Positions 4,485 through 26,148 of a stretch of 26,148 nt of DNA are shown in pieces. The stretch's first letter is position 1. The number at the start of each line of letters is the position of its first letter. The DNA lies in IMG/VR virus record IMGVR_UViG_3300032260_000023, positions 1 to 26,148 of that record; one strand, written 5' to 3'. This stretch comes from a virus. Lineage: Duplodnaviria > Caudoviricetes. The position numbers were made by a program, and so were the translations under genes. The notes beneath the pieces were generated by a model. It was not told the DNA's origin. It made no database searches and saw only the letters and a list, made by a program, of their open reading frames with translations.

Positions 4485-4493
4485 GGTCATATT

Positions 4494-9356: not shown

Positions 9357-9366
9357 GAGGTGATCG

Positions 9367-9411
9367 GTGGGTTGTAAGAAAGGCCGCAGAGGCGGTGGTA
9401 AACGTAAATAG
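9367..9411 (+). CDS. 14-aa basic micropeptide MGCKKGRRGGGKRK
   Basis: Near-perfect SD AGGAGGTGA (9355-9363) just before GTG at 9367; stop TAG at 9409-9411. Confidence 0.45.
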   Translation: MGCKKGRRGGGKRK

Positions 9412-9427
9412 AACGCTGTGAAGCGTT
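9412..9427 (+). promoter_or_regulatory. GUGA-tetraloop hairpin upstream of scaffold gene
   Basis: AACGCT-GTGA-AGCGTT, perfect 6-bp stem. Confidence 0.5.
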
Positions 9428-9454
9428 AATTTTCCCTTAAAGACGGAGTATATT

Positions 9455-10525: not shown

Positions 10526-10541
10526 CTAAGAGAGGTACACA

Positions 10542-11510: not shown

Positions 11511-11523
11511 AGGAGGTGATCTA

Positions 11524-12042
11524 ATGGCTTTTACACCAACTAATAGCAACGCTAAGCATGCTGCTGATGGTTGTCTGGGTGTCGATCTTGATGGCACCAT
11601 TGCAGGCACCGGAACCAGTAATGACGAAGGCGGCGCTTTCCGTTTGGGCAAATGTGTAACAACCACAGAGGGTGGTAAATACATGTATGTCCATGCCAGT
11701 GCAGCAATCGCTCAGTATGATGCTGTCGGTATTGATGAAAACTTTGAAGCCGCGCCCTTAACCAAGGCAATGGCTGATGATGGCTGGATGGTTGGATTTG
11801 CGCAGGTAGCTCTTGCAGATAACGATTTTGGCTGGGTTGCCAGCCAGGGCTCCGATATTGGGTGCAATCTTTTGATTAGCTGTGCTGCTGATGTGGCTTT
11901 GTACACTTCTGCCACCGCAGGATCATTGGATGATGCGTCTACCAGTCAGACGAAGATTGATGGCGTGGTTGCAGTGACAACGATTACAGCAGCTACATCT
12001 GCTGAAATCATCGCAACTTACCCTAAATCTACAACCTTCTAG
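11524..12042 (+). CDS. putative capsid decoration/cement protein
   Basis: Small Ala/Gly-rich beta protein directly after MCP, with GKYMYV and FGWV motifs; strong RBS GAGGAGGTG. Confidence 0.65.
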   Translation: MAFTPTNSNAKHAADGCLGVDLDGTIAGTGTSNDEGGAFRLGKCVTTTEGGKYMYVHASAAIAQYDAVGIDENFEAAPLTKAMADDGWMVGFAQVALADNDFGWVASQGSDIGCNLLISCAADVALYTSATAGSLDDASTSQTKIDGVVAVTTITAATSAEIIATYPKSTTF

Positions 12043-12049
12043 GAGGTAC

Positions 12050-12072
12050 GCCCCGGCTTCGGTCGGGGCTTT
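12050..12072 (+). terminator. cUUCGg-capped hairpin (weak terminator and/or structured RBS)
   Basis: GCCCCGGC-TTCG-GTCGGGGC followed by only TTT, after the capsid genes. Confidence 0.6.
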
Positions 12073-12075
12073 AAC

Positions 12076-12888
12076 ATGGTTCCATTCTTACCAAAAGACC
12101 AGACAAGCGAAGAGACAATTAAAATCCGCATGGATAACGTGCGCGCTAATTGTCAGCTAGATTTGCCATGGTTTGAGCCTTCAGATGTCAGGAGGAGAGT
12201 AGTTGCTGCTTGTCCGGGCCCATCTTTGAAGGACAATCAAGGAAAGATGAGGAAAATGATAAAGGGCGCTGAGCTGTGGGCTGTAAATGGGGCTTATGGC
12301 TGGTTGCTTGATCGTGGTTTGATTCCTGATGTGATGGTTTTATGTGATGCTAAGCCAAACATGTTGGAGTTTATTAAAAAAACACATGATAAAACGGTTT
12401 TCTACATTGCTTCACAGTGTCATCCGGATGTTTTTAAGGCGCTAGAAGGTAAAAAGGTTTATTTATGGCATGCTTATTTAGATGGTATAGAAGATTACCT
12501 GAAAGATGAACAAGAAAGACCTTGCTCTGTCATACACGGAGGCGGCACTGTAGGCCTAAAAGCCATGTATCTTGCATACCTGAGAGGAAGCAGGCAGATA
12601 GATTATTATGGTTTAGATGGATCTATTGCTAATGGGGATCTGCATGTTAATGGGGCTGAATATATACCAGATAGAGAGCAATGCTACAGCAGAACATATG
12701 ATGTTGTATGCGCAGGCAGAGAGTTTAAGATAGCAGAAGGTTATGCATCACAAGCCCCTAATTTTGTTTCACAAATAGAGTTAATCCCTGATTGCAAAGT
12801 TAGGGCGCATGGGGATGGTTTAATCCCTCACATTTCTAAAATACTACAGGCTCAGCTAAGGCAGCCTACAGGAGTCAGTCATGGGTGA
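12076..12888 (+). CDS. DUF115/Maf (MptE-like) domain protein, putative glycosyltransferase-like enzyme
   Basis: CPGPSL, WAVNGAY, GLIPDVMVLCD, GGTVGLKAMYLAYLRG and YGLDGS motifs typical of this family. Confidence 0.7.
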   Translation: MVPFLPKDQTSEETIKIRMDNVRANCQLDLPWFEPSDVRRRVVAACPGPSLKDNQGKMRKMIKGAELWAVNGAYGWLLDRGLIPDVMVLCDAKPNMLEFIKKTHDKTVFYIASQCHPDVFKALEGKKVYLWHAYLDGIEDYLKDEQERPCSVIHGGGTVGLKAMYLAYLRGSRQIDYYGLDGSIANGDLHVNGAEYIPDREQCYSRTYDVVCAGREFKIAEGYASQAPNFVSQIELIPDCKVRAHGDGLIPHISKILQAQLRQPTGVSHG

Positions 12889-13495
12889 TACCGGCATTTT
12901 CCCACAGTTTTCCCTTAAATCAGTACAACATAAAGCCTCAAGCGAGAAAGAGGGAAGGCCTATCTTTAGAGATGTCGAATGGTTGGATATCCATATCGCT
13001 GGAGACAAAAACACGCAGGTTTCGCGCAAGGTAACTGACTTTGATAAACAGCGGTTTTCTGCGGAATATAATGCCTTCAAGCGAGGACAGGAGGCACCAG
13101 TAGAGGGAACTCCATTGCAAGAGTGGGCTTTATTGAGGCCTGCGCAGGTTTCTGAATTACTGGCGATGAGGTTTCGGTCAGTGGAGGATGTTGCTGGCAT
13201 GCCTGATACTGCGGTGCAGAAGATTGGAATGGGCGGGAGAGAGCTGAAGAAAAAAGCGCAAGCATGGCTAGATAGCGCCTCAAATGGTGCGGTTAGTCAA
13301 AAATTGGTCGCTGAAAACGAGCGGCAAGCCAGCGAGATAGGCATGCTTAAAGAGCAGCTTCAAGCCATGAACGCTACGATAGATGAGCTTAAGGCTTCAT
13401 TAGAGGATAAGCCTAAACCAAAGCGCAAGCGGCGCACAAAAGAACAGATCGCGGCAGATGAGGCGGGTGAAGTAAAGAGCTCCTTGGCAAGCTGA
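12881..13495 (+). CDS. conserved hypothetical phage head-region protein
   Basis: GTPLQEW...SVEDVA motif, C-terminal coiled coil and basic tail; GGAG RBS. Confidence 0.75.
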   Translation: MGDTGIFPQFSLKSVQHKASSEKEGRPIFRDVEWLDIHIAGDKNTQVSRKVTDFDKQRFSAEYNAFKRGQEAPVEGTPLQEWALLRPAQVSELLAMRFRSVEDVAGMPDTAVQKIGMGGRELKKKAQAWLDSASNGAVSQKLVAENERQASEIGMLKEQLQAMNATIDELKASLEDKPKPKRKRRTKEQIAADEAGEVKSSLAS

Positions 13496-13506
13496 TGGGG
13501 GACTAA

Positions 13507-14226
13507 ATGACTCTTCTAACGATATGCAGTAATGTAGCCAAAGAGATTCCTGTTGAAAGTCCGGTTACAATTTACGGCTCTTCAAATTCTACAGCTAAGC
13601 TTTTGCTAGCTTGCGCTCAGAAAGAGGGCCGTGTTTTAGCGAAAGAGTTTAACTGGCTTACTTTGGTTAAAGAGTACACCTTTACAACAGCAAATGGCAC
13701 GGCTGATTATGGTCTGCCAAGTGATTTTAGTCGGCTGGAAAACCAAACTATCTGGGATAGAACCAATTATTGGGAGATGAGAGGCCCAATATCACCACAG
13801 CAATGGCAGGAATATAAATCCTCTGTACTTGGTGACACTGTTACAGTCAGAAAACGGTATCGTATACGCGATGTTTCAGGAACAGTTAAGTTTTCCATAG
13901 ATCCAACCCCAGATAGCGCCGACGATTTAGTATTTGAATATGTATCTAATGCTTGGTGTGAGTCATCAGGTGGAACAGGCCAAACAGCCTGGGGCGCTGA
14001 TGACGATGTAGGGGTTATCGATGAGTACTTAATAGAGCTAGGTGTTTTGTGGCGAATGCTGAAGCGTCTTGGGATGGAATATGCAGACGAAAGGCAAGAG
14101 TATGAAAATCAGGTAAGAATAGCCAAGGCGCAAGACGGTGGAGCACCTGTGCTAAATTTAGCCGCAAGGCGACAAACCACACTGATCGGGCCGTGGAACG
14201 TGCCTGATACTGGGTTCGGCAGCTAA
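13507..14226 (+). CDS. head-tail adaptor (tail tubular protein A / P22 gp4-like role)
   Basis: MTLLTIC start, YGLPSDF motif, size and position before the nozzle gene. Confidence 0.75.
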   Translation: MTLLTICSNVAKEIPVESPVTIYGSSNSTAKLLLACAQKEGRVLAKEFNWLTLVKEYTFTTANGTADYGLPSDFSRLENQTIWDRTNYWEMRGPISPQQWQEYKSSVLGDTVTVRKRYRIRDVSGTVKFSIDPTPDSADDLVFEYVSNAWCESSGGTGQTAWGADDDVGVIDEYLIELGVLWRMLKRLGMEYADERQEYENQVRIAKAQDGGAPVLNLAARRQTTLIGPWNVPDTGFGS

Positions 14227-15701
14227 TGCCTTCTAGGCCTTTATCGGTTCCGTCACCATTCGGAGGGTGGAACACCCGTGATGCACTGGACGGAATGTCA
14301 CCTACAGATGCGGTGAAACTTGATAATTGGATACCGGGAATCAATAAAGTTTATACGCGAGATGGATACGCCTCTCATTCGACAGGAGTGGGAGCAGGAG
14401 CCGTGCAAACACTCGCAGAGTACCATTCAGGGGCCACAAGGAAGCTGCTAGCTTGTGGTGGTGGGGCGATTTATGACTCGACTTCTTCGGGGGCTGCAAC
14501 ATCTAAGGCCAGCGGATTTACTAACAATATTTGGTCTACCGCTAATTTTAGCGGGAAACTGTTTTTATTTAATGGCGATGATGCGCCGCAAGAATATGAT
14601 GGGTCAACAGTTTCTGCCTCAAGCTGGAGTGGATCCGGTTTAACGCCAGCTGATTTAGATGGCGTTAATGTGTTTAAAAACCGGCTTTTTATGTGGAATA
14701 GTGAAACGCAAGATTTTTGGTACGCTACAATAGATGCTGTTTCTGGCGCACTGACAAAGTTCCCCCTTTCTAGGATTACAGGTTTTGGTGGGAACTTGGT
14801 TGCGATGACAACCTGGACGATAGATAGTGGAACAGGCGTAGATGACTTAGCTGTGTTTATTATGTCTTCAGGGAATGTAGTTGTGTATGCAGGGACTGAT
14901 CCAGGCGACGCGGATGCGTGGGCTATTCAGGGCATTTATAATATTGGTCAGCCTTTAGATAAAAGGGCGGTTGTTAGAATAGGGGGTGATTTATTAATTG
15001 CCACTACAGACGACTATTCTTCTTTGACAAGTGTTTTAAGAAAGGGACACCTTGGGGGGTCTTCTAAGCTATCAGGGGCCGTTCAATCATCCGCCAGCGC
15101 AAATAAGGATGGTGCTGGATGGCAGGGCATACTATCCCCAAAGCATAGCCTGGTGCTGTTTAATGTCCCTAACTCAGATGGGAGCTTTGATCAGCACGTC
15201 ATAAACACCACATCGGGAGCACCATGTAGATTTAAGGATATCCCTTCTAATTGCTGGAGCCTGTATAGCGACGACCTTTATTTTGGCGGTGGTGGTGGCG
15301 TGGTGTATAAGTACACGGGAGACAATGACAACAGCTCTTCAATAGAGGCCGATGCCATACAGGCCTGGTCTATGATGGGCAGCCCAACCCGCAAGAGAGT
15401 GGCAGCCATTCGCCACATTATAGAAAGCACCTCCACCTCTCTATCTTATGAGGTAGGGATAGGGTTTGACTTTCAGCAAATATCAACTCCATCGCCATCT
15501 GTGACGACTGGATCATCTTCGCCTTGGGACACCTCTCCCTGGGATGTTACCCCCTGGGGAGCTGATTCGATTATTAACACCGACTGGAAGGTGGCTGGCG
15601 GTACTGGCCAGAGCATAGCCGCGAGAGTAAGGGTAAACACCAAAGCCCCGGCCTCATGGTTGAGAACTGACTACAGGCTAGAGGCAGGAGTAAACCTGTG
15701 A
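14226..15701 (+). CDS. tail nozzle / head-closure protein (P22 gp10 / T7 gp12-like role)
   Basis: SPFGGWNTRD start, beta-propeller-like repeats (FKNRLF, LFLFNG), C-terminal PWDTSPWD motif. Confidence 0.8.
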   Translation: MPSRPLSVPSPFGGWNTRDALDGMSPTDAVKLDNWIPGINKVYTRDGYASHSTGVGAGAVQTLAEYHSGATRKLLACGGGAIYDSTSSGAATSKASGFTNNIWSTANFSGKLFLFNGDDAPQEYDGSTVSASSWSGSGLTPADLDGVNVFKNRLFMWNSETQDFWYATIDAVSGALTKFPLSRITGFGGNLVAMTTWTIDSGTGVDDLAVFIMSSGNVVVYAGTDPGDADAWAIQGIYNIGQPLDKRAVVRIGGDLLIATTDDYSSLTSVLRKGHLGGSSKLSGAVQSSASANKDGAGWQGILSPKHSLVLFNVPNSDGSFDQHVINTTSGAPCRFKDIPSNCWSLYSDDLYFGGGGGVVYKYTGDNDNSSSIEADAIQAWSMMGSPTRKRVAAIRHIIESTSTSLSYEVGIGFDFQQISTPSPSVTTGSSSPWDTSPWDVTPWGADSIINTDWKVAGGTGQSIAARVRVNTKAPASWLRTDYRLEAGVNL

Positions 15702-16150
15702 TTTTATACGGCCATGATGCTGAGATTGCAGAATGGGTTGGGAGTGAGCTGGAGTGTTATTTCGAGCCAGCAGCAAAAGCTATAGGACTAGTGCTGAAAG
15801 GAAGAATAATCGCTGGCGTGGTCTATCATACCTATAGGCCAGGGTATAATATAGAGATGTCGATAGCATCAATTACGCCAAGATGGGCAAACGAAAACAG
15901 TTTAAGGGCTTTTTTCACTTATCCGTTTATACAATTAAATTTGCCGCGAGTTACGGCGGTTACTTCGAATAAAGCAACGTCAGTGCAAAAGTTTCTTGAG
16001 CGCCTTGGGTTTATCAAAGAAGGCATGATGAGAGAAGCGCACCCAGACGGTGATGCTCTTATTTATGGGTTGTTACGAAAAGACTGTAAATACATAGAGG
16101 AATTACCAGATGGGCAAAAAAAGCTCACCATCACCACCGCCGCCGCCTGA
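15698..16150 (+). CDS. GNAT-family acetyltransferase
   Basis: NKATSVQKFLERLGFIKEGMMRE (RimJ/RimL-type motif B); usual podovirus position between nozzle and ejection genes. Confidence 0.85.
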   Translation: MILYGHDAEIAEWVGSELECYFEPAAKAIGLVLKGRIIAGVVYHTYRPGYNIEMSIASITPRWANENSLRAFFTYPFIQLNLPRVTAVTSNKATSVQKFLERLGFIKEGMMREAHPDGDALIYGLLRKDCKYIEELPDGQKKLTITTAAA

Positions 16151-17447
16151 TCCTAAAGAGACAGCGGCAGCCCAGGCGGCAGCCAATAAAGAGGCTATAT
16201 TAACCTCGGCAGCAGTTAACAGGGTTGGCGAGTTAACTCCCTATGGTTCTACTCGGTGGGAAATTGACCCCACTGGGCCTGGTGCAGATAGAATGGCGGG
16301 CTATGAAAGGGATCTAGCAGACTGGCAGAAAGAAGTTGACGCAATAAATGCATACAACGCTAATTTGCCTGCTACCTCTACCCGTAAATGGGTTGGAACT
16401 CAAGGCGCTGATGCTCCAGGCAGAGAAGGCCGATGGGAGAACATCCAGGGTGTAGCGTCACCTCGCGATATACCTGAGCGCCCAGAAGAGCCCACCGTTG
16501 AAGAGGGTTGGCGACGGGTAATGGAGTTAACTCCAGAGGGGCAGGCTCAATTCGAGCAGCAGCAACAGCTTGCTTCTATGTTGGGCGGAAGCGCGATTGA
16601 AAGAGCAGAAGGTATACCAAGTGATCCTTTTCAGCTGCCAGGTGCAAGGCCTGAGCTTCAGGATGTTTCAGACGTAGAGCGGCGACAGTTTGATCGCGCA
16701 ATGGAGCTAATGAGGCCAGAGCTCGAAAAGCAAGAACGCAGGATGGAGACAGGCCTGAGTCAGAGGGGTATTCCCATTGGTGGTGAAGCCTGGGCGGACG
16801 TAACCGGACGATTTGGAAAAACCCGGGATGAAATGATGCGCGGTGCGGCATTTGATGCAATGAGAGCAGGTCAAACCGAGCAAGGGCGAAGATACGGCCT
16901 TGAAAGAGGTGCCTATCAGGATTTGATGAGTGATACCTTGCTTGAAAGACAGCAGCCAATGAATGAATTGGCGGCCATTCTTCAAGGATCACCGGCTTTG
17001 CAAACGCCACAATTCAGCCCACAAGCGCAATACCAAGCGGCTCCAGCGGACATAATGGGTGCTACTCAAATGCAGCAATCGGCATTGGGTCAGCAGTATC
17101 AACAGCAGGCACAGGAAGCGGCAGGAGCAAGGCAGGGAACGGCACAACTTGCCGGGACGGCTCTCATGGCGTTAGCTATGTTCTGCCACCCGTCCTTTAA
17201 AGAGAACAAGCGCCCTGTCTCTGAAATTCTGCCTAGAATGAAGATTCTTAGAGTTGAGGCATGGGATTATAAAAAAGGTGTTTGTGATGAGGATACACAC
17301 ATAGGCCCGTATGCTGATCAGTTTCAAAACCTGTTCGGGGTGGGTGATGGTGTGACGATTAACTACATTGATGCAATGGGTGTTTGCATGCTGGCGATTA
17401 AAGAATTGATTGATCGTGTTGAGTACCTGGAGTCAGAAAATGGCTAA
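16110..17447 (+). CDS. internal virion/ejection protein with C-terminal peptidase S74-like (intramolecular chaperone) domain
   Basis: MGKKSSPSPPPPPDP start, Q/A-rich body; C-terminal FKENK...WDYK...HIGPYA...INY...AIKEL pattern. Confidence 0.75.
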   Translation: MGKKSSPSPPPPPDPKETAAAQAAANKEAILTSAAVNRVGELTPYGSTRWEIDPTGPGADRMAGYERDLADWQKEVDAINAYNANLPATSTRKWVGTQGADAPGREGRWENIQGVASPRDIPERPEEPTVEEGWRRVMELTPEGQAQFEQQQQLASMLGGSAIERAEGIPSDPFQLPGARPELQDVSDVERRQFDRAMELMRPELEKQERRMETGLSQRGIPIGGEAWADVTGRFGKTRDEMMRGAAFDAMRAGQTEQGRRYGLERGAYQDLMSDTLLERQQPMNELAAILQGSPALQTPQFSPQAQYQAAPADIMGATQMQQSALGQQYQQQAQEAAGARQGTAQLAGTALMALAMFCHPSFKENKRPVSEILPRMKILRVEAWDYKKGVCDEDTHIGPYADQFQNLFGVGDGVTINYIDAMGVCMLAIKELIDRVEYLESENG

Positions 17448-18624
17448 CATGTTCATACAGAAAGACCCAGGCATTGAGCGCAGGCGCAGACTTGCTGCAT
17501 CAATGATGTCACGGCCTACACCATCAAACATGACGCATTGGAGCCAGGGACTTGGGGACGTGGCGCAAAAAGCGCTCGGTGCTTACATGTCTAAACAAGC
17601 TGATACAGAGGCAGAAGAGCGGCAATCAGCCCTTGGTGAAACTATGCAGCAAGCAGCTACTGCTGAGCCGTGGATAGACCCAGACACCCAGAAGCCAGAA
17701 GCCACTAAAATAGAGCAGATGGCGCGTGTGTTGGCACAAAATCCTGATACTGCTCCAATGGCCATGCAGATGAGAATGCAGGATGCGCAATCAAAGGATA
17801 AAAAAACCCAGGCTTTAGAATTGGCAAGTGCAAAAGCAAAAGCAGGGGGCGGGCCAAGCTCTATCCAAGAGTGGAACGTATATAACGCAATGTCTCCAGA
17901 GGATCAGGAGCGCTTCTTAACTATGAAACGTGCTAATCGCTTGTATGATGTAGGCGGTGAATTTAGGGGAATGACCCAGACCACACAGGAGCCTACTGTA
18001 TCACTTGAAAAGACCCTAAAGCCTGGAGAGCGCCCAGAAGTAAGAGGACAGCAAGCGGCAGCTAAAACAGCAGCCACTCAGTTTGAAACCGCTAAAGGAA
18101 AGTGGCGCGCGTCTGAAACTAAACTATTAAGTACTCTTAAGTCATCGAAAGCCCGTCAAGAAGTATTGGATACAACCATTGAAAAGGCGAAAACATTACT
18201 TAGCAAGTGGACAACCTCCTATGGAGGCATGCTGGCCAATGTTCCGGCCACGGAGTCAAAGCGCCTTAGTAATCTGCTTGATACGATCAAGGCCAATGTG
18301 GGGTTTTCCGAGCTTCAGTCTTTGCGTGATAACTCCCCAACAGGCGGTGCCTTAGGTCAGGTTTCAGAGATGGAAAACAGGCTTTTGCAGTCTGTTCTAG
18401 GCTCTTTGGATCAGGTTGGCGATATGGGCGATTTAGCTGCAACACTGGATACTGTAAGCACACAAAGGCTTTCTGCTATTCAGAGGATGGAGGAGGCCTA
18501 CAACATGGATAAGGGTACTTACGGAACGAGAATTAAGATGCTAAAGCCAGGAGAAGATACTGGAGAGCCTTCTGATGTGGGCGAAATGTCGGATGAAGAG
18601 CTAATGAAATCACTGGGACTATAA
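17440..18624 (+). CDS. putative DNA ejection (internal virion) protein
   Basis: Helical A/Q/K-rich protein with GGALGQVSEME motif; GGAG RBS before ATG at 17440. Confidence 0.7.
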   Translation: MANMFIQKDPGIERRRRLAASMMSRPTPSNMTHWSQGLGDVAQKALGAYMSKQADTEAEERQSALGETMQQAATAEPWIDPDTQKPEATKIEQMARVLAQNPDTAPMAMQMRMQDAQSKDKKTQALELASAKAKAGGGPSSIQEWNVYNAMSPEDQERFLTMKRANRLYDVGGEFRGMTQTTQEPTVSLEKTLKPGERPEVRGQQAAAKTAATQFETAKGKWRASETKLLSTLKSSKARQEVLDTTIEKAKTLLSKWTTSYGGMLANVPATESKRLSNLLDTIKANVGFSELQSLRDNSPTGGALGQVSEMENRLLQSVLGSLDQVGDMGDLAATLDTVSTQRLSAIQRMEEAYNMDKGTYGTRIKMLKPGEDTGEPSDVGEMSDEELMKSLGL

Positions 18625-20066
18625 TGCCAACCAAACTAGAACTGCTTGCAGAAGCGCATGGAAGAGGATTGCTTCCTCCAGATAAAGCGGCCGCTTTTGA
18701 GGAATACCAGCGCAGGCAAGGCGGTCAAATAGAAGCGGATGTTCCACGTGAAACAAAGCCTGAGGCGCAAGATTTTTCTTTTGTTGAGATGCTTAAGAAT
18801 ATCCCTGAAAGCGCATCTAATATTGTCGGCGGCACTGTTGAAGCGCTTATGGAGCCAGGACAAACTGCTGAGGCTTTAGGGCGGCTCGGGAAGGGCGCTG
18901 TAGATAAAAGTTTCAGGCTTCTATCAGAAGAAGCGGCAAGGATGACGCAGGAAGGCGGAAGACCTGAGCTTGCAGAGCGGCTTGCTGTAGAGAGAACGCC
19001 AGACGAGGCGACAGTAGAGGCTGTTGGTCAGGCTATCATGGATAGGTATGGATCTATGGAGGCATTCCAGAAAACAGTGCAGGAAGACCCTGTAGGAGCG
19101 CTGATGGACTTGTCAGGAGCCGGGATGGCTGCGGGTGGGGCTGCTCGGGTTCCAGCGTTGACCAAGGCGGCAGCGGCTATTGATCCGTTTAACTTGGCGA
19201 CAAAAGGAACAAAGGTTGCTGCTGGTAAGGCAATACCCAAAGACATGCCAACAGGAATGATGGAGAGCGCTGCAAAGTTTGGCACGACCGTTGATCCAGC
19301 TAAGCGCAAAAGATTAGCTAGAACCATGCTAGAGGAGAAAATAGGGCCAACGGCAAAAGGAGTTGAAAAAAGGTCTGCGCTTGTTAACACGCTAAACAAT
19401 GAGATTGACACCCTTATAGATACAGCAGAAACAGCAGGGAAGTCAGTTCCTGTGGATACGGTATTTAGGCACTTTAAGTCTCTAAGGCAGAAAGTTGGAG
19501 GCCCAAAAATAGAGGGGGCTAGGGATCTTCGCATAGTTAATAAGGTTGCAAAAGATTTCAAGCAGCATCTTGAAAAAACAGGTAAAACGAGTTTTACCCC
19601 GTCTGAATTACAGGAATTTAAAAAAGACCTATGGCAAAGGGTGGATTTTGAGAGAGGTCAAGGCAGGGCGGTTAAAGCTAAAGAGGAGTCTTTTTACGCT
19701 GCTGGTAGAGGTGCGAAAGAAGGAATTGAAGAGATGGTTCCTGAAGTTGGCCCTGTTAACCTAAGGGAAGGCAGGCTTCTAGAGCTTAGAAAGCCATTAG
19801 AAAGGGCGGCATCAAGGATTGAAAACAGGGATCTTATAGGGTTAAGTGCTCCTGCAAAGATTGGCGGCGGAACCGTAGTGGGTGGGCCAGCAGGTACGGC
19901 AGTTGGCACCCTTGCGGCCCTATTGGATGCACCAAAGATAAAGGCATTAACTGCGCAGGGGTTACATAATGTACAGCAAACTAAACTGGCTGAGTTGCTG
20001 AATGCCAATGTGCCAATGACAGTGGCAAGACAGATCGCCATGCAGTACGGTCGAGAGAATCAGTAA
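18624..20066 (+). CDS. putative DNA ejection (internal virion) protein
   Basis: A/G-rich helical protein, TAATG-coupled, located before the tail fibre gene. Confidence 0.7.
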   Translation: MPTKLELLAEAHGRGLLPPDKAAAFEEYQRRQGGQIEADVPRETKPEAQDFSFVEMLKNIPESASNIVGGTVEALMEPGQTAEALGRLGKGAVDKSFRLLSEEAARMTQEGGRPELAERLAVERTPDEATVEAVGQAIMDRYGSMEAFQKTVQEDPVGALMDLSGAGMAAGGAARVPALTKAAAAIDPFNLATKGTKVAAGKAIPKDMPTGMMESAAKFGTTVDPAKRKRLARTMLEEKIGPTAKGVEKRSALVNTLNNEIDTLIDTAETAGKSVPVDTVFRHFKSLRQKVGGPKIEGARDLRIVNKVAKDFKQHLEKTGKTSFTPSELQEFKKDLWQRVDFERGQGRAVKAKEESFYAAGRGAKEGIEEMVPEVGPVNLREGRLLELRKPLERAASRIENRDLIGLSAPAKIGGGTVVGGPAGTAVGTLAALLDAPKIKALTAQGLHNVQQTKLAELLNANVPMTVARQIAMQYGRENQ

Positions 20067-20137
20067 AATATATTTACTATGCCGTTGATGGCTAAGTAAA
20101 TCAGATAACCGATAACAGCGGTAGTGAGTAGTTCCAT
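20060..20137 (-). CDS. 25-aa single-TM antisense peptide MELLTTAVIGYLIYLAINGIVNIFY
   Basis: Manually translated; fills the intergenic gap; extended -10 (TGcTATTAT) lies 6 nt before ATG. Confidence 0.45.
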   Translation of the reverse strand: MELLTTAVIGYLIYLAINGIVNIFY

Positions 20138-20151
20138 AGTTGAATAATAGC

Positions 20152-20165
20152 ACGTCGTGAGGCGT
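20152..20165 (+). promoter_or_regulatory. GUGA-tetraloop hairpin upstream of tail fibre gene
   Basis: ACGTC-GTGA-GGCGT immediately 5' of the RBS GAGGTG. Confidence 0.45.
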
Positions 20166-20177
20166 TAGAGGTGAAAG

Positions 20178-21446
20178 ATGTCTTGGAATGGGTCAGGAGT
20201 ATTTAACAGGATTTATAACTGGGTAGCAGACCGCGATGCTAATATTGATATTACTGCCTCTAGGTTTGACGCTGAGAACGATGATTTTGCTTCCGGTATT
20301 CAGGCATGTCTTGCGAAAAATGGAGAGAACTCACCCACTGCTGATCTTCCAATGAACAGCAAAAAACATACGGATGTTGATGATGCCACTGCCAGAAATC
20401 AATACTCAGCCGTAGGTCAAGTGCAGGATGGTGAATTTAATTACGCTACTGATACAGGGGCAGCGGATGCTTATGCTATATCTCCAACGCCGGTTATAAC
20501 TGCGTATGTTGCTGGGCAGGAATTTAGTTATATAGCCACCAACGCAAGTACTGGTTCTTCAACGCTGTCCGTGTCGGGATTACCTGCTAAAGCGCAAAAG
20601 AAAAATGGCAATGCCGATGATACTGTAGCTAATGATATTAAGACCAATGATCTAATAACGGTCAAATATGATGGAACTGTATTCCAGATAACAGATAAAA
20701 AAAGGCTTAGCCCTGGAGAGGTTGATACAACCGAGTTATCTGATAATGCAGTAACAGAGGATAAGCTAGCAACAGCACTGGTTCATTTGGCGAAAGTTGG
20801 CGTTGAAGGTTCAGCGGTTGCCTCTGCGAGTACGATTGATCTTGACGCTGCTACTGGTGAATTTGTCCACATTACCGGAACTACAACCATAACAGCCATT
20901 ACGTTGGCTCAAGGCATAGAAAGAACGGTTGTATTTGATGGTATTTTAACACTAAGCAATGGGGCGGGCTTAATCCTTAAGAGCGGTGCAAATATCACTA
21001 CAGCAGCTGGTGACACTGCCACTTTTAGAGGAGAAGGAAGTAGCGTAACCAGATGCACAGGATATGATAGAGCTGACGGAAAAGCACTAGTTACATCAGC
21101 ACCGTTCTCCGACTCTTATACTAGCACTGAAATCACTATCTCTGCTGCTGGAAACGTGACTCCATCTCACGGGCTCTCATCACAGCCAACTCTTGTTCAG
21201 GCACGAGTTGTGTGTAAAACAGCAGAATATAACTACTCTATTGGGGATGAGGTTGTGATTAACCCTACAGGAATGGCACAGGCCTCTGCTGATGGCAGAG
21301 GGTTGGTGATTGTGCCAACAGCAAGTACGCTGTACATTCAGTTTGCTAGCTCATCGCAACCAATAGAAATTTTAAACAAAACTACCGGCGTACCAGAGTT
21401 TATTACTAATGCAAATTGGAAGCTTGTTGTGAGGGCGTGGGTATAA
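20178..21446 (+). CDS. tail fibre / tailspike protein
   Basis: MSWNGSGVF podoviral attachment N-terminus, GAADAY, ASASTIDL and HITGTTTITAI fibre motifs; last gene of the late operon. Confidence 0.8.
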   Translation: MSWNGSGVFNRIYNWVADRDANIDITASRFDAENDDFASGIQACLAKNGENSPTADLPMNSKKHTDVDDATARNQYSAVGQVQDGEFNYATDTGAADAYAISPTPVITAYVAGQEFSYIATNASTGSSTLSVSGLPAKAQKKNGNADDTVANDIKTNDLITVKYDGTVFQITDKKRLSPGEVDTTELSDNAVTEDKLATALVHLAKVGVEGSAVASASTIDLDAATGEFVHITGTTTITAITLAQGIERTVVFDGILTLSNGAGLILKSGANITTAAGDTATFRGEGSSVTRCTGYDRADGKALVTSAPFSDSYTSTEITISAAGNVTPSHGLSSQPTLVQARVVCKTAEYNYSIGDEVVINPTGMAQASADGRGLVIVPTASTLYIQFASSSQPIEILNKTTGVPEFITNANWKLVVRAWV

Positions 21447-21498
21447 TCTATCATCCAACCCGTTAGGATTTAGGCTGCATAGTTATGTCTAGCCCTTG

Positions 21499-21708
21499 TT
21501 ATGTGCCTAGCCACGGCGCAATTGTTACAGCCTGTCTTGCTGGGTCAAATCTCTTATCATCGCGCAAGCAAACTGGAATAATCTTTCCATCAGGGTAGCC
21601 ACAGCCAAAGCATGCCTGTGTTGTTGCATGTCCATGTCTACAGTGATGACCACCAGCGCTATTGGATATCAACCCGCTACACCAGTCTTCTTTTTTAAGA
21701 TTATTCAT
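21499..21708 (-). CDS. cassette C1 ORF, Cys/His-rich hypothetical protein
   Basis: 69 aa; HHCRHGH and CFGC; stop TAA is the TTA of GTTATGT (21498). Confidence 0.7.
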   Translation of the reverse strand: MNNLKKEDWCSGLISNSAGGHHCRHGHATTQACFGCGYPDGKIIPVCLRDDKRFDPARQAVTIAPWLGT

Positions 21709-21721
21709 AATTTACCCCGTC

Positions 21722-21808
21722 ACATAACAAAGCCAATCAAGCGGAGCGCCTAAAGCTTTGCGGTTTATTTATAGTTGGTAGCGCGCCAGCTTATTGGCAA
21801 CGTTAGGT
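21722..21808 (+). repeat. attC-like site 1 (87 bp)
   Basis: R'' ACATAAC; GCCAATCAAGC pairs with GCTTATTGGC with one extra C; R' GTTAGGT. Confidence 0.9.
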
Positions 21809-22006
21809 GGCAGGCTTAGCGTCGCTGTCAATTTCAGGTTTTAGGCAGTTAACAGTAACAACAACGCTGTAGCCATTTTCTATTATTTTGTAATCCAAGT
21901 TCGCCTCCTTGCATTTTTTTACAGATTCAACTTGCTCATCTACTGATAAAGAGCAGCCACCTAACAAAAACATCAAGCTGACAGTCAGGGTCGTTACTTT
22001 TTTCAT
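21803..22006 (-). CDS. cassette C2 ORF, predicted small lipoprotein
   Basis: MKK + hydrophobic core + LGGC lipobox (Cys18); starts inside attC2 and stops in the R' box at 21802. Confidence 0.8.
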   Translation of the reverse strand: MKKVTTLTVSLMFLLGGCSLSVDEQVESVKKCKEANLDYKIIENGYSVVVTVNCLKPEIDSDAKPAT

Positions 22007-22069
22007 AATCCTAGTTTCCTATAGTTTGTTCTGGCTGCATCAGTAGCAGCTTATGTAATTCCGTTACAC
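21959..22069 (+). repeat. attC-like site 2 (111 bp)
   Basis: R'' ACCTAAC; ACATCAAGCTG pairs with CAGCTTATGT with extra C; R' GTTACAC. Confidence 0.88.
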
Positions 22070-22132
22070 ATACGGCCTAACGCCATGCTCTCTTAAAATG
22101 GCTCTGTATCGTTTGATCTCTGACTCAATCAT
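22064..22132 (-). CDS. 22-aa ORF MIESEIKRYRAILREHGVRPYV
   Basis: Manually translated; ATG overlaps the end of the YbcO-like gene; stop TAA in the R' box at 22063. Confidence 0.35.
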   Translation of the reverse strand: MIESEIKRYRAILREHGVRPYV

Positions 22133-22424
22133 CGCTTGCGCGCCTGATATTAGTTAGCATTATCCAGTGCAAAAACTCTTCACTCCTTTCAGTGCTTTTG
22201 CTCCCGCCCACCCACATCTGGTATTTAGCTTCAGAGAATAGCTCATCACATGCCTGACAAAATTCTGCCGTTGCTATATCCGTGCATTTTATGCCTCGCC
22301 CTTTGCCGTAAGAATGCGATCTAAATCCGTTGTAATGGCACGGCCTTGTCTCTCCATCCCTTCCGCATCTAATGCAGCCGCGGTGCCTTGCTTTATCTAA
22401 CTCTTTTCTGTCTCTATTCTTCAT
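22125..22424 (-). CDS. YbcO/DUF1364-like zinc-binding nin-region protein
   Basis: CIRC...CH...GKGRGIKCTD...CQAC pattern; ATGA-coupled start at 22424. Confidence 0.7.
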   Translation of the reverse strand: MKNRDRKELDKARHRGCIRCGRDGETRPCHYNGFRSHSYGKGRGIKCTDIATAEFCQACDELFSEAKYQMWVGGSKSTERSEEFLHWIMLTNIRRASDD

Positions 22425-22825
22425 AGGCCAAAGCACAGCATAGCTGCGTCTCGTGTATGCTCATTAGAGCCACCCTCCCACCCTGTTATTTGCTTAAATA
22501 CATTAGCCTTAACCTTACCCTTCGGAGGCTGCGTGATGACCTTATAACCCATATCCATAAGCATAGCTGACATTAACTCAGCCTCTCGGCATACTCTTCC
22601 TATGTTATGTGCGGTTGTCCCAGATTTGTCTTTGTGCCAGTTTGCCTTAGTCCGTGGCACCTCCACGACGCAAGCAAACACATCGTCAGGGGCCACGCTG
22701 GTTTTTATTAAATTCAGCGCGGACACGAAGTTTTCATTGGATAGCGCGATCAGCTTTTTTGACTGCCTGTCGTAGATTGCCACCCCTGTTGATTTACCCG
22801 GATCAATGCCGATAGTGAATTTCAT
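22421..22825 (-). CDS. RuvC-like (RNase H fold) putative Holliday junction resolvase
   Basis: IGIDPGKSTGVA, VVEVP and NEHTRDAAM catalytic acidic residues. Confidence 0.75.
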   Translation of the reverse strand: MKFTIGIDPGKSTGVAIYDRQSKKLIALSNENFVSALNLIKTSVAPDDVFACVVEVPRTKANWHKDKSGTTAHNIGRVCREAELMSAMLMDMGYKVITQPPKGKVKANVFKQITGWEGGSNEHTRDAAMLCFGL

Positions 22826-23289
22826 TTGTAGTATTTCCTGAATTTATCCAAAATAGGCAGCGGCTCACCTATTGATTGATAATGAGACTCTATGGCATTC
22901 ATGTAAGCTTTCATCTGATTCAGCGTAGCCCAAGATAGAGAGATGCGTTTTGCATGCTGCTCCAGCTTGTCATGCTGCCTGGTTTCTTGGTATATGGCCA
23001 GAAGCTCCACCCATTGCTCCTGTAACGGTGTCTGCGGGGAGGTAACATAAATCCTGGCTAAGAACTTAGCTTTAAGCATTCTATGCAGGTAGTCCTCGCT
23101 CTCGCCCTGTTCAGCTAAATGCTTTATCCAGCACCCAAATAACCCTCCAAGCTGTGCAAGCGTTTTGGCTACAGCTATTTTCCTGAGAATCACCTCATAT
23201 GTGCCGTTTAGATCATGGGATCTAATATCAGTAATGGCTCTTTGCAATGAGCCTGAGTGAGATAAAACATATCTGCTTGAGTCATCCAT
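22822..23289 (-). CDS. NinB/YbcN-like recombination protein
   Basis: KTLAQLGGLFGCW resembles RSLxQNxxxxxW; C-terminal QMKAYMNAIE...IGEPLP; probable start at 23289 (TGATG coupling) rather than 23340. Confidence 0.65.
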   Translation of the reverse strand: MDDSSRYVLSHSGSLQRAITDIRSHDLNGTYEVILRKIAVAKTLAQLGGLFGCWIKHLAEQGESEDYLHRMLKAKFLARIYVTSPQTPLQEQWVELLAIYQETRQHDKLEQHAKRISLSWATLNQMKAYMNAIESHYQSIGEPLPILDKFRKYYK

Positions 23290-23375
23290 CAGAACCCTCC
23301 AGCAGAACCAGAATACAAAACCAACAAGAAATATACACACCCAGCCTGTAGTGCCTTAGCTAAACAATGGGTCAT
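23289..23375 (-). CDS. 28-aa peptide MTHCLAKALQAGCVYFLLVLYSGSAGGF
   Basis: Strong SD AAGGAGG (complement of 23384-23390); its TGA overlaps the ATG of the NinB-like gene. Confidence 0.5.
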   Translation of the reverse strand: MTHCLAKALQAGCVYFLLVLYSGSAGGF

Positions 23376-23430
23376 TGATAATTCCTCCTTAATACTTGAC
23401 CGCTTCATTTGTGGTGCCGAATATCATGTG

Positions 23431-23754
23431 TTATGCATCATACCGCTTAGTCATTTCAGAAACGGTTTTGCAAGCAACACAGTCAGACATAAATCCAACA
23501 CCACCGTGCTTTTTGCAGAGATTAATAGCCTTATCTCCGTCAAAGCTCAATAGGTCTAGCAGCATGCCAATATCAGCAGCAAGCGTATTTAACTCATTAG
23601 CAACTTCAATCACTTTCATCGCGGTGCCGTTTTTGTGGATGATTGTGGCATCACCAAAATATCCCTGCTTAATGGTATAAACAGGCATAACAAGGTTGTT
23701 CAACGCAGATTCGCTGCTGTGGTGCTTGGTTTTGGTATCTGTGTTCTGTTCCAT
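23431..23754 (-). CDS. cassette C3 ORF, hypothetical (C-terminal CKKH...CVAC)
   Basis: GGAG RBS and ATG inside attC3; stop in GTTATGC at 23430. Confidence 0.75.
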   Translation of the reverse strand: MEQNTDTKTKHHSSESALNNLVMPVYTIKQGYFGDATIIHKNGTAMKVIEVANELNTLAADIGMLLDLLSFDGDKAINLCKKHGGVGFMSDCVACKTVSEMTKRYDA

Positions 23755-23807
23755 TTTATAGTCTCCAGCGGTTTAAACCCGCTCTCTGGTTAACAACGAT
23801 GTTAGCC
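23685..23807 (+). repeat. attC-like site 3 (123 bp)
   Basis: R'' GCATAAC; GTTGTTCAAC pairs with GTTAACAAC with extra C; R' GTTAGCC. Confidence 0.88.
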
Positions 23808-23811
23808 GTCA

Positions 23812-24123
23812 CTAAATACGCTGAGCCTCCGCTGTTTTTATGGCGTTCTGTTTTGCTTTATTTCGCTCTTTTTCGTCAGCCTCGTCATGCAGATTGTCGA
23901 TAACTTTTGCAGCTTTGCGGATATTATCAGCAGAATTTCCGAATCGTTGAGCCATATTGTATTCCTTGGCAGTTGCTGCAAGTTCTGCAATTTCATCAAA
24001 CTTTCCAGCCACTATTTTAAGCATCTGGCTCCAGTCTGTCTCATCACGGCTAACAAAATTATTCAACGCGGACTTATCACCGTCAGCGGCGGGTTTTACA
24101 TCAGTATTTTTGTTCATAATCAT
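23812..24123 (-). CDS. cassette C4 ORF, helical hypothetical protein
   Basis: AAGGA RBS and ATG inside attC4; TAG stop 10 nt inside the cassette end. Confidence 0.75.
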   Translation of the reverse strand: MIMNKNTDVKPAADGDKSALNNFVSRDETDWSQMLKIVAGKFDEIAELAATAKEYNMAQRFGNSADNIRKAAKVIDNLHDEADEKERNKAKQNAIKTAEAQRI

Positions 24124-24169
24124 CTGTCCTTAAAGTTCAGTTTCAAGCCGGTTAATAAAATCGTTAGTC
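24048..24169 (+). repeat. attC-like site 4 (122 bp)
   Basis: R'' GGCTAAC; TTATTCAAC pairs with GTTAATAA with extra C; R' GTTAGTC. Confidence 0.88.
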
Positions 24170-24406
24170 TGCGCTAGCAGCTTTGCAGTTCTCTGCTCTG
24201 TTCACAATCCTCCAGGTTTCAAGGATCTGAAATTGCATATAAGCCAAATGCTCAAGCATCTCTGATTTTCCTTTCTGACCGTGCATCCTTAGATACTCTA
24301 GTAGCTCCTCTTGCTGAAACAGTCCGTCAGGCTCACCAACATGGTACATTCCAGTGTCGTCATCGGTTACAACGGTTACTGTAGCCATCTGTTTTCTTTC
24401 TGGCAT
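24164..24406 (-). CDS. cassette C5 ORF, hypothetical
   Basis: Own RBS (GGAGTGAG) in the cassette body; stop in R' at 24163. Confidence 0.75.
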   Translation of the reverse strand: MPERKQMATVTVVTDDDTGMYHVGEPDGLFQQEELLEYLRMHGQKGKSEMLEHLAYMQFQILETWRIVNRAENCKAASAD

Positions 24407-24433
24407 TTCATCTCACTCCGTAGCAGGGGCGCA

Positions 24434-24523
24434 CACTAACAAAGCAAATCCAGCGGATGCCGATAGTCGTGCGCGTTTTAGTCAATTACCGTGCTAGGCA
24501 CAGCTGATTATGCAACGTTAGGT
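24434..24523 (+). repeat. attC-like site 5 (90 bp)
   Basis: R'' CACTAAC; AATCCAGC pairs with GCTGATT with extra C; R' GTTAGGT. Confidence 0.88.
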
Positions 24524-24934
24524 GGCAAAATCGAAGCGCCAGCATGGGTAGCCATTTGAAACATTGCAATATTCCATCACCAGTATTAACTTTAGGTTTT
24601 GGTCATCAACCCAATCACGTAGAAAAGCCTCTATTTTTTCAGGCTCTCGGTTGTTCCAATATTGCCCTTTATTGCCAAAGTGTTTTTGGCATAGCTCATC
24701 ATGTTTGGCAAAATCCCACTGAAGAAGGCGGTCACTATAAATTGTGGAGGTTGCCTCATTATTCTTGCCGCCGCGCCACTGAACAAACCCATCGTAACTG
24801 TAAGGGTGCGTTTGCTTTGTTCGCTTTACGGGTTTGTCGTGCTCATCAACCTTGCCACATAACAAAGCAAATCCAGCTGACCCGCTACTGTGGTGGTTGT
24901 AATCAGTTTCAAACAGAGTATTTAGGTTATTCAT
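24518..24934 (-). CDS. cassette C6 ORF, aromatic-rich hypothetical protein
   Basis: HPYSYD, YSDRLLQWD and GYPCWRF motifs; ATG and AGGA inside attC6; stop in R' at 24517. Confidence 0.8.
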   Translation of the reverse strand: MNNLNTLFETDYNHHSSGSAGFALLCGKVDEHDKPVKRTKQTHPYSYDGFVQWRGGKNNEATSTIYSDRLLQWDFAKHDELCQKHFGNKGQYWNNREPEKIEAFLRDWVDDQNLKLILVMEYCNVSNGYPCWRFDFAT

Positions 24935-24987
24935 ATCGTTTAGTCCTGTGGTTGTGTCTCGCGGTCATCTGATTTACAACGTTATAA
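24857..24987 (+). repeat. attC-like site 6 (131 bp)
   Basis: R'' ACATAAC; AAATCCAG-c-TGACC pairs with GGTCA-t-CTGATTT with extra C; R' GTTATAA. Confidence 0.88.
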
Positions 24988-25404
24988 CGCACGTAGAAAG
25001 TCCTTCACGGCCTTCTGGTTTTCGGTTTCGTTGTCATCATAACCTCCGCAATAAAAACAGAACTTATTGCTCTTTAAATACTCCAGGGTGGCATCCTGTG
25101 GGTCATATTGGCCTTCAAAGCCATAGCATGAACAATGACTACCGCTAAATTCACAGTATTCTTTTGTGTCCTTGTGCTGCAATAGAAAATAAGATGAAGA
25201 ATCACAACCCCAGCTACCTACTGATTCATAGGCAATAACCACATCGTAGCCCTCTAATATTTCAGCAAGCTCTTTTGTATCCTTTTCTGAAATATCGCCA
25301 CCACTCCAGCCTTCACCCTGGGTTCCAGCGTACTCTGAAGCAATGTGAGCCTTAACCCCTGCTTCATCTAATTCTTTCAAGTCCTCTAAAAACAGTTGTT
25401 TCAT
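24982..25404 (-). CDS. cassette C7 ORF, acidic hypothetical protein with GSHCSCYG motif
   Basis: Own GGAG RBS; stop in R' at 24981. Confidence 0.8.
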   Translation of the reverse strand: MKQLFLEDLKELDEAGVKAHIASEYAGTQGEGWSGGDISEKDTKELAEILEGYDVVIAYESVGSWGCDSSSYFLLQHKDTKEYCEFSGSHCSCYGFEGQYDPQDATLEYLKSNKFCFYCGGYDDNETENQKAVKDFLRAL

Positions 25405-25425
25405 CGTAGTTCTCCGTTGGTGCTG

Positions 25426-25495
25426 TTATAACAAAACGCTCTAGCAGACATTCGCTGCGCTGCGCTTGCTCATGCATGTGAGCTAAGTGTTAGTT
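25426..25495 (+). repeat. attC-like site 7 (70 bp, 59-be-like)
   Basis: R'' TTATAAC, GCTCTAGC...TGAGC arms (imperfect), CGCTGCGCT centre, R' GTTAGTT. Confidence 0.8.
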
Positions 25496-25786
25496 GTCTT
25501 CAACGATAACTATGCCACCCTTAATCAGAACTTTTTTATTCTTGCTTCCAAGCCACAAAGTTACGGTGTCCACCCTCTGCTCATCTACCACCATAGAACT
25601 ATCCGTGATGGTTTTTAGTAGCTTTCCGTTAAGCTCGGTATACACATAAGCTGTTCTTTCTGTTCCAGTAACATCTGCTTTTATGTTATACGTTCCGCGT
25701 TGAGCATTCTCGCATCCGACAACTAACAAGCAGGTCAAGCAGACTGCTAACAGCGGTGCTTTTTTGGAGTTTAATAGTGTTTTCAC
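25490..25786 (-). CDS. cassette C8 ORF, predicted lipoprotein
   Basis: GTG start and GAGGA RBS inside attC8; basic N-region, hydrophobic core, VVGC lipobox-like motif (Cys25); stop in R' at 25489. Confidence 0.8.
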   Translation of the reverse strand: MKTLLNSKKAPLLAVCLTCLLVVGCENAQRGTYNIKADVTGTERTAYVYTELNGKLLKTITDSSMVVDEQRVDTVTLWLGSKNKKVLIKGGIVIVEDN

Positions 25787-25849
25787 GGTTAAGTCCTCTT
25801 AATTAAATTTGTGCCACGTTTCCGCAGCTCCTTACCTTTATCGTTATCT
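25721..25849 (+). repeat. attC-like site 8 (129 bp)
   Basis: R'' AACTAAC; AGGTCAAG pairs with CTTACCT with extra C; R' GTTATCT. Confidence 0.88.
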
Positions 25850-26146
25850 ACCTAGATCCTCATGCGAGGCAATCGCTATTGCAGAAGCAACAGCAAGGTG
25901 TATTCCAGCTCGGCTGCTAAGGCCATGCCTGCTCCTAACTTTCCCGCCTCCATCAACCACAAGGAGTTCTTGCTTGGCACGCTCGGCTTTTCTTAGCTCC
26001 ATCTCGGTTGCTATTTGCGCTTGTCTTTCTTCCTCCAGTGCAATTGCCTGCTCTTTGCGTTGGGCGAAAGTTCCTCGGTTTTTAGCTTGTCCCATAGTCT
26101 TATCTCGGTAGATAACAAAGTTGTTCAAAACGACGCGGAGGTCGTT
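25844..26146 (-). CDS. cassette C9 ORF, hypothetical (start uncertain: ATG at 26095 or beyond the window edge)
   Basis: Frame stays open through attC9 to the window end (...VVLNNFVIYRD); stop in R' at 25843. Confidence 0.7.
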   Translation of the reverse strand, partial: NDLRVVLNNFVIYRDKTMGQAKNRGTFAQRKEQAIALEEERQAQIATEMELRKAERAKQELLVVDGGGKVRSRHGLSSRAGIHLAVASAIAIASHEDLGR

Positions 26147-26148
26147 GG
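26110..26148 (+). repeat. attC-like site 9, left arm only (truncated by window)
   Basis: R'' AGATAAC followed by AAAGTTGTTCAA, nearly identical to the left arm of site 3. Confidence 0.75.

What the first reader, a model, noticed from the sequence alone, without database searches (positions are those of the whole stretch)
21499..26148. Integron-type attC gene-cassette arrays built into a phage genome, with no integrase in view
Seen: nine attC-like sites (21722, 21959, 23685, 24048, 24434, 24857, 25426, 25721, 26110), each starting with an NNNTAAC box and, where complete, ending in a GTTANNN box. In seven of the eight complete sites the inner arms pair with one unpaired C on the + strand; site 7 is imperfect. 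The central loops are variable, lengths are 70-131 bp, and the sites separate single short ORFs. Established: this is the R''-L''-VTS-L'-R' architecture recombined by integron integrases (IntI), and to my knowledge such arrays are described for bacterial chromosomes and plasmids and are rare or unreported in phages. Inference: the phage uses cassette recombination, via host IntI in trans or an integrase outside the window, to acquire and shuffle accessory genes in its nin-like operon.
Basis: partly seen in the sequence, partly recalled or inferred. Interest (0 to 1): 0.95.

Follow-up and report, generated by a model that had tools for sequence, protein, structure and literature searches.

The report
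Backward integron cassettes swapped in phage
A phage carries nine integron-type folding DNA sites that divide its small accessory genes into units whose genes face backwards compared with bacterial cassettes, and related contigs hold different units starting and ending at the expected cut point, so the phage likely borrows its host's integron integrase to swap its own genes.

Summary
Observation confirmed. Nine attC sites lie in two arrays (2 and 7) of a podovirus-like contig. A covariance model built from 41 bacterial attC sites hits all 8 complete sites. Each unit's left border matches its own R'' box, as in a circular cassette (best of 362,880 pairings). Two other contigs share array A's borders but carry 3 and 5 different cassettes, diverging and rejoining at G|TT; one cassette is a type IV csf-cysH operon. 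Eight stop in G|TTA and five start inside their own attC loop. Array starts are reused attI-like motifs. No recombinase is on this contig or in three complete phages with 8-18 such sites, so host IntI in trans is the likeliest enzyme (about 0.75, untested). Phage attC clusters are published (Qi 2023), and their IntI1-active PH101 site lies in a reversed array, unremarked in the text I searched. This scan noted the reversed layout before on other DNA (17 findings). New variant of a known kind.

The parts
21448..21504 (+). Array A start site, attI-like (TGTCTAG-CCCTT-G|TT, crossover after G 21498); no attC body upstream
   Evidence: Shared with L334 and L335, which diverge after G|TTA; same register as first-cassette borders beside intI in L302 and L304; related motif at 4 array starts of G005
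21499..21708 (-). Cassette 1 ORF, 69 aa, no family; stop TAA is the G|TTA border
   Evidence: same cassette (21498-21753, 0 differences) in run X2 behind other sequence
21722..21808 (+). attC 1, 87 bp, short class (start codon outside); + = top strand
   Evidence: 58 bits
21803..22006 (-). Cassette 2 ORF, 67 aa, lipoprotein-like N-terminus; starts inside attC 2
   Evidence: (weak hits only)
21959..22069 (+). attC 2, 111 bp, long class; its R' G|TT at 22063 is the shared right border of array A
22063..22129 (-). Leftover last 21 codons of a ninG gene; its stop codon is the right half of the array A target site
   Evidence: 98.5% identical to L001, where it ends a Pfam NinG gene
22125..23340 (-). 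Non-cassette block between the arrays: HNH endonuclease, Holliday junction resolvase, and a 172-aa gene without family hit (NinB-like is my recalled label)
23415..23436 (+). Array B start site (GCCGAATAT-N5-G|TT, G at 23430); no attC body upstream; second reused start motif
   Evidence: Same motif in G006 (once) and G007 (twice; both at array starts)
23431..23754 (-). Cassette 3 ORF, 107 aa; starts inside attC 3
   Evidence: first 22 aa 91% identical in G004 with a different gene body
23685..23807 (+). attC 3, 123 bp, long class
23812..24123 (-). Cassette 4 ORF, 103 aa; starts inside attC 4; stop TAG lies 10 nt inside the border
24048..24169 (+). attC 4, 122 bp, long class
24164..24406 (-). 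Cassette 5 ORF, 80 aa
24434..24523 (+). attC 5, 90 bp, short class
24518..24934 (-). Cassette 6 ORF, 138 aa, family of at least 308 proteins; first 26 codons are coded by attC 6
24857..24987 (+). attC 6, 131 bp, long class
24982..25404 (-). Cassette 7 ORF, 140 aa, viral family; its PHROG label 'integrase' is not supported
25426..25495 (+). attC 7, 70 bp, degenerate, short class
   Evidence: 23 bits
25490..25786 (-). Cassette 8 ORF, 98 aa, phrog_2316; starts inside attC 8
25721..25849 (+). attC 8, 129 bp, long class
25844..26128 (-). Cassette 9 ORF; start uncertain (frame open to the contig end, or ATG at 26095)
26110..26148 (+). attC 9, left arm only, cut by the contig end

Best explanation
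The phage carries two arrays of attC gene cassettes whose genes lie on the bottom strand, the mirror image of bacterial cassettes, and relatives hold different cassettes between the same G|TT borders; the host's integron integrase likely does the swapping in trans. Shown: each unit runs from G|TTA (the gene's stop codon in 8 of 9) through the gene to its own attC. Short attC sites (70-90 bp) are intergenic; long ones (111-131 bp) hold the ribosome site and start codon in the loop and code a leader peptide. Each array starts at a reused non-attC motif. Inferred: folded bottom strands are recombined by IntI (attC x attC excision, attC x start-site insertion). A leftward phage operon promoter beyond the contig end would transcribe the arrays, so new cassettes would join the far end of the transcript. 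Inferred, weaker: the mirror layout would keep host cassettes, many of them anti-phage, silent if they enter the phage array, and would make the recombining strand the one exposed in transcription.
For: Circular-cassette signature: left border against own R'' matches 54 of 72 positions (nt 5-12), against 19 of 64 for the site's own R'; best of 362,880 pairings. Covariance model from bacterial sites hits 8 of 8 complete sites on the - strand; 17 of 22 genomes holding arrays of this attC type encode IntI above cut-off, 0 of 14 controls. Three alleles of array A (window 2, L334 3, L335 5 cassettes, none shared) leave at 21501-21510 and rejoin at G|TT 22063; L335 shares only GTTA past the cut. Run X2, another study, holds 21498-21753 with 0 differences starting exactly at the G; 12 of 18 loose ends shown lie within 5 nt of an R' or R'' box (11 more not shown). 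Left ends of arrays lack an attC body and array A ends in one, as a crossover at R' predicts. No tyrosine recombinase on the contig; none, and no serine recombinase, in complete G003, G005, G007 with 8, 16 and 18 sites. Orientation: 45 of 51 consecutive pairs in nine other phage records reversed, 1 forward, 5 unclear; bacterial pairs 19 forward, 2 reversed, 9 unclear of 30. PH101_attC2, recombined by IntI1 in Qi et al. 2023, lies in a reversed array.
Against: No recombination was measured on these sites, and no circle junction or precise deletion was seen. The contig is about 69% complete, so a recombinase could lie outside. The host is unknown. Folds are weak and the top strand is more stable at sites 1, 5 and 7. 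Six of nine sites have a 6-nt R''-L'' spacer (also common in the bacterial set) rather than the 5 nt of aadA7; site 7 is degenerate. The attI-like motif was defined after seeing the sites and is in only 3 of 20 intI upstream regions; the array B motif was not found in any bacterial locus held. L334, L335 and run X1 are probably not independent of the window. The reasons offered for the mirror layout are untested.
Confidence: 0.75

Rival explanations
1. The cassettes are real, but a recombinase coded by this phage in the missing third of its genome, or by a helper element, swaps them.
For: Contig is linear and about 69% complete. An earlier scan note reports a Xer-type recombinase beside a reversed array in another phage (e1-6087349; not checked on its DNA).
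Against: Three complete phages with the same attC family and layout have no TIGR02249, PF00589 or PF00239 match; PH101 has no PF00589 or PF00239 match either. The 'integrase'-labelled cassette 7 protein has no conserved Arg and no recombinase fold.
Confidence: 0.1
2. The attC-like sites act as shared linkers for homologous or annealing-type recombination, or as RNA hairpins that couple translation; IntI is not needed today.
For: attC bodies are 70-88% alike between phages; the phages also share non-attC segments of 63-109 bp; the long sites carry ribosome sites and starts.
Against: Homology-driven exchange does not explain the match between each unit's two ends, the extrahelical bases, or L335 diverging with only GTTA shared past the cut.
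Confidence: 0.09
3. A piece of a host integron was captured once and is frozen in the phage.
For: Captured integron segments are described in Vibrio and Shewanella prophages (Qi 2023); one R' in L335 is mutated to ATT.
Against: Genes are reversed, unlike host arrays; cassette 6, 7 and 8 products belong to viral or phage families; three different alleles sit between the same borders.
Confidence: 0.04
4. The region is host DNA or is mis-joined to the phage structural module.
For: The phages in this population share short segments at the array borders, which can cause chimeric joins.
Against: L335 independently joins the same tail gene end (21266-21446, 99%) to the same start site; contigs in X1 across 22751-25871 have even depth of 46-49; the arrays flank phage nin-type genes. 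A wrong join would still be phage to phage.
Confidence: 0.02

Closest known systems
CALINs in virulent phages (Qi et al. 2023, PMC9892861; read parts 2-4 of 7, a term search of the main text, supplement part 1 of 2; figures and Dryad file not seen)
   Same: Clusters of attC sites in a phage without intI. By my model and the records' annotation PH101 (3 sites) and MW202573 (4 sites) have the same reversed layout.
   Different: The paper describes PH101 as typical of bacterial arrays and its text has no remark on reversed genes. TJE1 is forward. Not described in what I read: start codons in the attC loop, reused start sites, natural alleles swapped at G|TT.
Bacterial integron cassettes and attC sites recombined by IntI
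   Same: R''-L''-loop-L'-R' layout, extrahelical G on one strand, crossover at G|TT, complementary cassette ends.
   Different: Gene on the bottom strand with its stop in the upstream border; no intI; expression would come from the far end, not from a Pc beside attI.
SALINs and attG insertion (Loot et al., bioRxiv 10.1101/2022.09.11.507474; 12 of 26 matched passages seen)
   Same: IntI inserts cassettes at GWT sites outside an integron, and they can be excised; the array A target includes the ninG stop codon.
   Different: Here several cassettes are stacked at fixed, reused start motifs and are oriented with the phage operon.

Membership tests
attC site / integron gene cassette | R'' (..TAAC) and R' (GTT..) boxes 50-140 bp apart | tested here: met
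   9 of 9 R'' and 8 of 8 R'
attC site / integron gene cassette | L''/L' pairing with an extrahelical G on the bottom strand | tested here: met
   7 of 8 complete sites; site 7 degenerate
attC site / integron gene cassette | Covariance-model support | tested here: met
   Own model from 41 bacterial sites (17 of 23 pairs with changes on both sides) hits 8 of 8 and 0 of 17 capsid-locus controls. The bacterial sites were fetched with a motif taken from the window; IntegronFinder itself could not be run; Rfam gave 0 hits.
attC site / integron gene cassette | Units move with breakpoints at G|TT | tested here: met
attC site / integron gene cassette | Bottom strand folds more stably than top | tested here: inconclusive
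   5 of 8; weak folds
attC site / integron gene cassette | Recombination by IntI | not testable with these tools
   Shown in print for PH101 sites, one of which I placed in a reversed array
Canonical cassette orientation | Gene on the top strand, ending at its attC | tested here: not met
   9 of 9 ORFs on the bottom strand
Complete integron | intI gene next to the array | tested here: not met
   No PF00589 match on the contig; none left of either array; contig 69% complete
Complete integron | attI site | tested here: inconclusive
   21487-21501 fits the register of two bacterial attI candidates, motif post hoc; 23430 motif seen only in phages
Complete integron | Pc promoter reading into the array from attI | tested here: inconclusive
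   10 promoter-like matches against 8.5 expected; genes face the other way
CALIN | Cluster of attC sites in one orientation without a nearby intI | tested here: met
Tyrosine recombinase (cassette 7 product, PHROG label 'integrase') | Conserved R-H-R-Y catalytic set and fold | tested here: not met
   No Arg conserved in 80% of 100 aligned homologues; confident model (pLDDT 93) has no PDB match at E 0.001 and matches only unnamed or uncharacterized viral proteins

The most novel reading that the evidence does not exclude
Phages run a mirror-image integron of their own: dedicated start sites, host IntI as the engine, and reusable attC modules that bring a ribosome site and start codon and are grafted onto ordinary phage genes at the R'' box. 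This would be a cassette factory caught in action and a firewall that silences incoming host defence cassettes. It would make de novo cassette formation directly testable.
Probability: 0.35. Interest if true: 0.9.

Novelty: new variant of a known kind. Interest (0 to 1): 0.7.

Why it matters
Integrons are seen as bacterial devices that stockpile anti-phage genes. Here phages appear to use the same recombination sites, turned round, to reshuffle their own accessory genes, including a type IV csf-cysH operon in a sister allele and a Lar-like gene in another phage. That would be a site-specific source of phage mosaicism that depends on a host enzyme. The same attC bodies occur with different genes, joined at R'', and one gene family occurs both inside and outside cassettes. 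This bears on cassette genesis, which Loot et al. 2017 (PMC5371416, Discussion) call largely unknown.

Tried and rejected
Rfam scan of the window: 0 hits. The chance control had an index error and is void; one search replaces it. The orientation tally (viral 14 reversed, 2 forward, 3 unclear, 21 unassigned; bacterial 10 forward, 2 reversed, 2 unclear, 46 unassigned) was too strict and was redone. L298 (G009), scored forward-forward and reversed-forward, was not part of the set. 28 of the 31 loci had no site by my scanner. Crossover at R'' instead of R' as the cassette boundary: rejected from the shape of the array ends. 'Integrase' label of cassette 7: rejected. Cassette proteins: no PADLOC hit in 9 of 9, no Pfam hit above cut-off. 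blastn of site 3 against GenBank phages: no match. No RNA holder listed. No excision or circle junction in four runs, which are contigs only. Run X1 gave almost no cover of 2600-21447; records are filtered and 13% were unread, so nothing follows from it. Promoter scan at chance level. Host not identified: capsid relatives are 52-59% identical in Bradyrhizobium, Myxococcus and Stenotrophomonas phages. No look-alike earlier finding by place. PMC10500605 passages gave nothing usable.
Full report
Context. The window is the whole record G000, a linear virus contig of 26,148 bp, about 69% complete. Bases 1-21446 hold a + strand virion module: terminase, portal, major head and tail proteins, with capsid relatives in Mx8-like phages. 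From 21499 to the end all likely genes are on the - strand. No tyrosine recombinase is on the contig.

Observation. The + strand has the extra C of L'', so the - strand is the bottom strand. I built a covariance model from 41 attC sites of bacterial genomes. It hits all 8 complete sites on the - strand and nothing elsewhere in the window, and 0 of 17 capsid-locus controls. Those bacterial sites were fetched with a motif from the window, so the model is not fully independent for the left arm; 17 of their 22 genomes encode IntI. Against: the folds are weak, the bottom strand is more stable in only 5 of 8, and site 7 is degenerate.

The units are cassettes that have moved. In a circular cassette the bases after G|TT pair with the bases before the cassette's own R''. 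All nine units show this: 54 of 72 positions against 19 of 64 for the linear partner, the best of 362,880 pairings. The first unit of each array has such a border (21498, 23430) with no attC body before it. Two other contigs share array A's borders with different cargo. L334 (same record as L001, L113) carries 3 cassettes and L335 carries 5; both leave the window at or just after G|TTA 21498 and rejoin at G|TT 22063. The right border is the stop codon of ninG, whole in L001 and left as 21 codons in the window. Run X1, possibly the source, holds all three alleles. Run X2, from another study, holds 21498-21753 unchanged, starting at the G behind letters that resemble an attC right arm (the resemblance is my reading). 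No circle junction was seen.

All nine ORFs are on the bottom strand. Eight end in the TAA that is the complement of G|TTA. Sites 2, 3, 4, 6 and 8 contain the ribosome site and start codon in the loop; sites 1, 5 and 7 do not; site 9 is open. Across 81 phage sites, those under 105 bp had the start outside in 32, inside in 4, unplaced in 13; longer ones inside in 23, outside in 5, unplaced in 4. In nine other phage records 45 of 51 consecutive pairs were reversed, 1 forward, 5 unclear; the signature there was 272 of 408 against a shuffled mean of 147 and maximum of 181. Bacterial pairs were 19 forward, 2 reversed, 9 unclear of 30. These sets were fetched by window-derived motifs and describe this attC family only; L298 was left out.

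Start sites. The array A border reads TGTCTA-N-N5-G|TT in the window and L335, one base different in L334. Two bacterial first-cassette borders beside intI have the same register (L302, L304), and four array starts in G005 fit, two of them seen after the motif was set. The motif occurs once in the window, against a background of 0.5-0.8 per 100 kb, but in only 3 of 20 intI upstream regions. The array B border motif recurs in G006 and twice in G007; G003 repeats a third motif three times. I read these as attI-like receptor sites; this is inference.

Enzyme. Complete phages G003, G005 and G007 carry 8, 16 and 18 sites and have no match to IntI, phage integrase or resolvase profiles. The cassette 7 protein, whose PHROG family is labelled integrase, has no conserved Arg and no recombinase fold. 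Host IntI in trans is therefore the simplest reading. IntI inserts cassettes at minimal GWT sites (Loot et al., bioRxiv 10.1101/2022.09.11.507474, passages).

Cargo and genesis. Window cargo is mostly without family; cassettes 6-8 belong to viral or phage families. L001's third cassette is 3.4 kb and codes Csf2, Csf1, a CysH-like protein and Csf3, a type IV-B-like operon; one published hypothesis is that such systems sponge guide RNAs (PMC8175902, passages). Its first start codon is inside the attC. Ten of 11 DNA matches between window attC bodies and other phages begin within 3 nt of R'', with unrelated genes beyond. For cassette 6, 94 of 120 listed homologue alignments start at residue 19 or later. 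Three of four viral homologue loci have no attC hit and the fourth sits behind a different long hairpin with the start in its loop. This suggests that attC modules are grafted onto ordinary phage genes at R''; it is inference.

Why reversed. Untested. A forward host cassette entering the start site would be antisense to the phage operon and silent, and phage cassettes entering a host attI would be silent too. Also, the coding strand is the recombining strand; placing bottom strands on the lagging-strand template affects excision (Loot et al. 2017, PMC5371416, abstract and Discussion part 1). The replication direction of this phage is unknown.

Known and new. Qi et al. 2023 reported 17 phage CALINs and IntI1 activity for 5 of 6 phage sites. 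By my model TJE1 is forward, while PH101 and MW202573 are reversed, and PH101_attC2 from their assay is one of the sites in that reversed array. A term search of their main text found no remark on reversal; I did not see their figures or the Dryad file, which may show it. Searches listed no paper on reversed phage cassette arrays; most subscription papers and bioRxiv supplements are outside this library. This scan holds 17 earlier notes with these words (8 shown), so the layout is not new within the scan. This window adds three natural alleles at one site, reused start motifs, the two attC classes and the published PH101 link.

Verdict. Real and more than chance; a new variant of a known kind; interest 0.7; IntI in trans 0.75.

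Noticed in passing
L001:1189-4528 (+): A csf2-csf1-cysH-like-csf3 operon (type IV-B-like; no cas11 identified) packaged as one 3.4-kb reversed cassette, first start codon inside the attC.
   Followed up: partly
window 21448-21510, 22062-22129, 23287-23395 against L001: A podovirus-like and a baseplate-bearing phage share only these short segments; they may be hotspots of module exchange.
   Followed up: partly
L335, first attC (reverse complement 533-662); three sites in G005 and one more in its other array: R' boxes read ATT instead of GTT, which would likely lock the neighbouring cassettes in place.
   Followed up: no
G003, G005, G007 (L322-L329): Complete 39-49 kb phages with 8-18 attC sites on both strands and repeated start motifs; those of G003 and G007 contain inverted repeats that could bind a protein.
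   Followed up: partly
L336:2350-2490: A homologue of cassette 6 sits behind a long hairpin of another type with the start codon in its loop (z -2.67): same design, different site family.
   Followed up: partly
L084:3701-4036: Lar-like restriction alleviation gene fused to an attC leader like that of window cassette 6.
   Followed up: partly
L120:284-520: A reversed cassette next to a forward gene on a 1.5-kb contig of a Candidatus Endoriftia genome: perhaps a phage cassette in a host array.
   Followed up: partly
window 97-684 and 12076-12888: Sulfotransferase (Pfam) at the contig start, and a 270-aa gene without PHROG hit inside the head module that may modify the virion (my guess).
   Followed up: no
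window 24982-25404: Confidently folded 140-aa viral protein with invariant Cys, His, Asp and Glu residues and no solved structural match; could bind a metal.
   Followed up: partly
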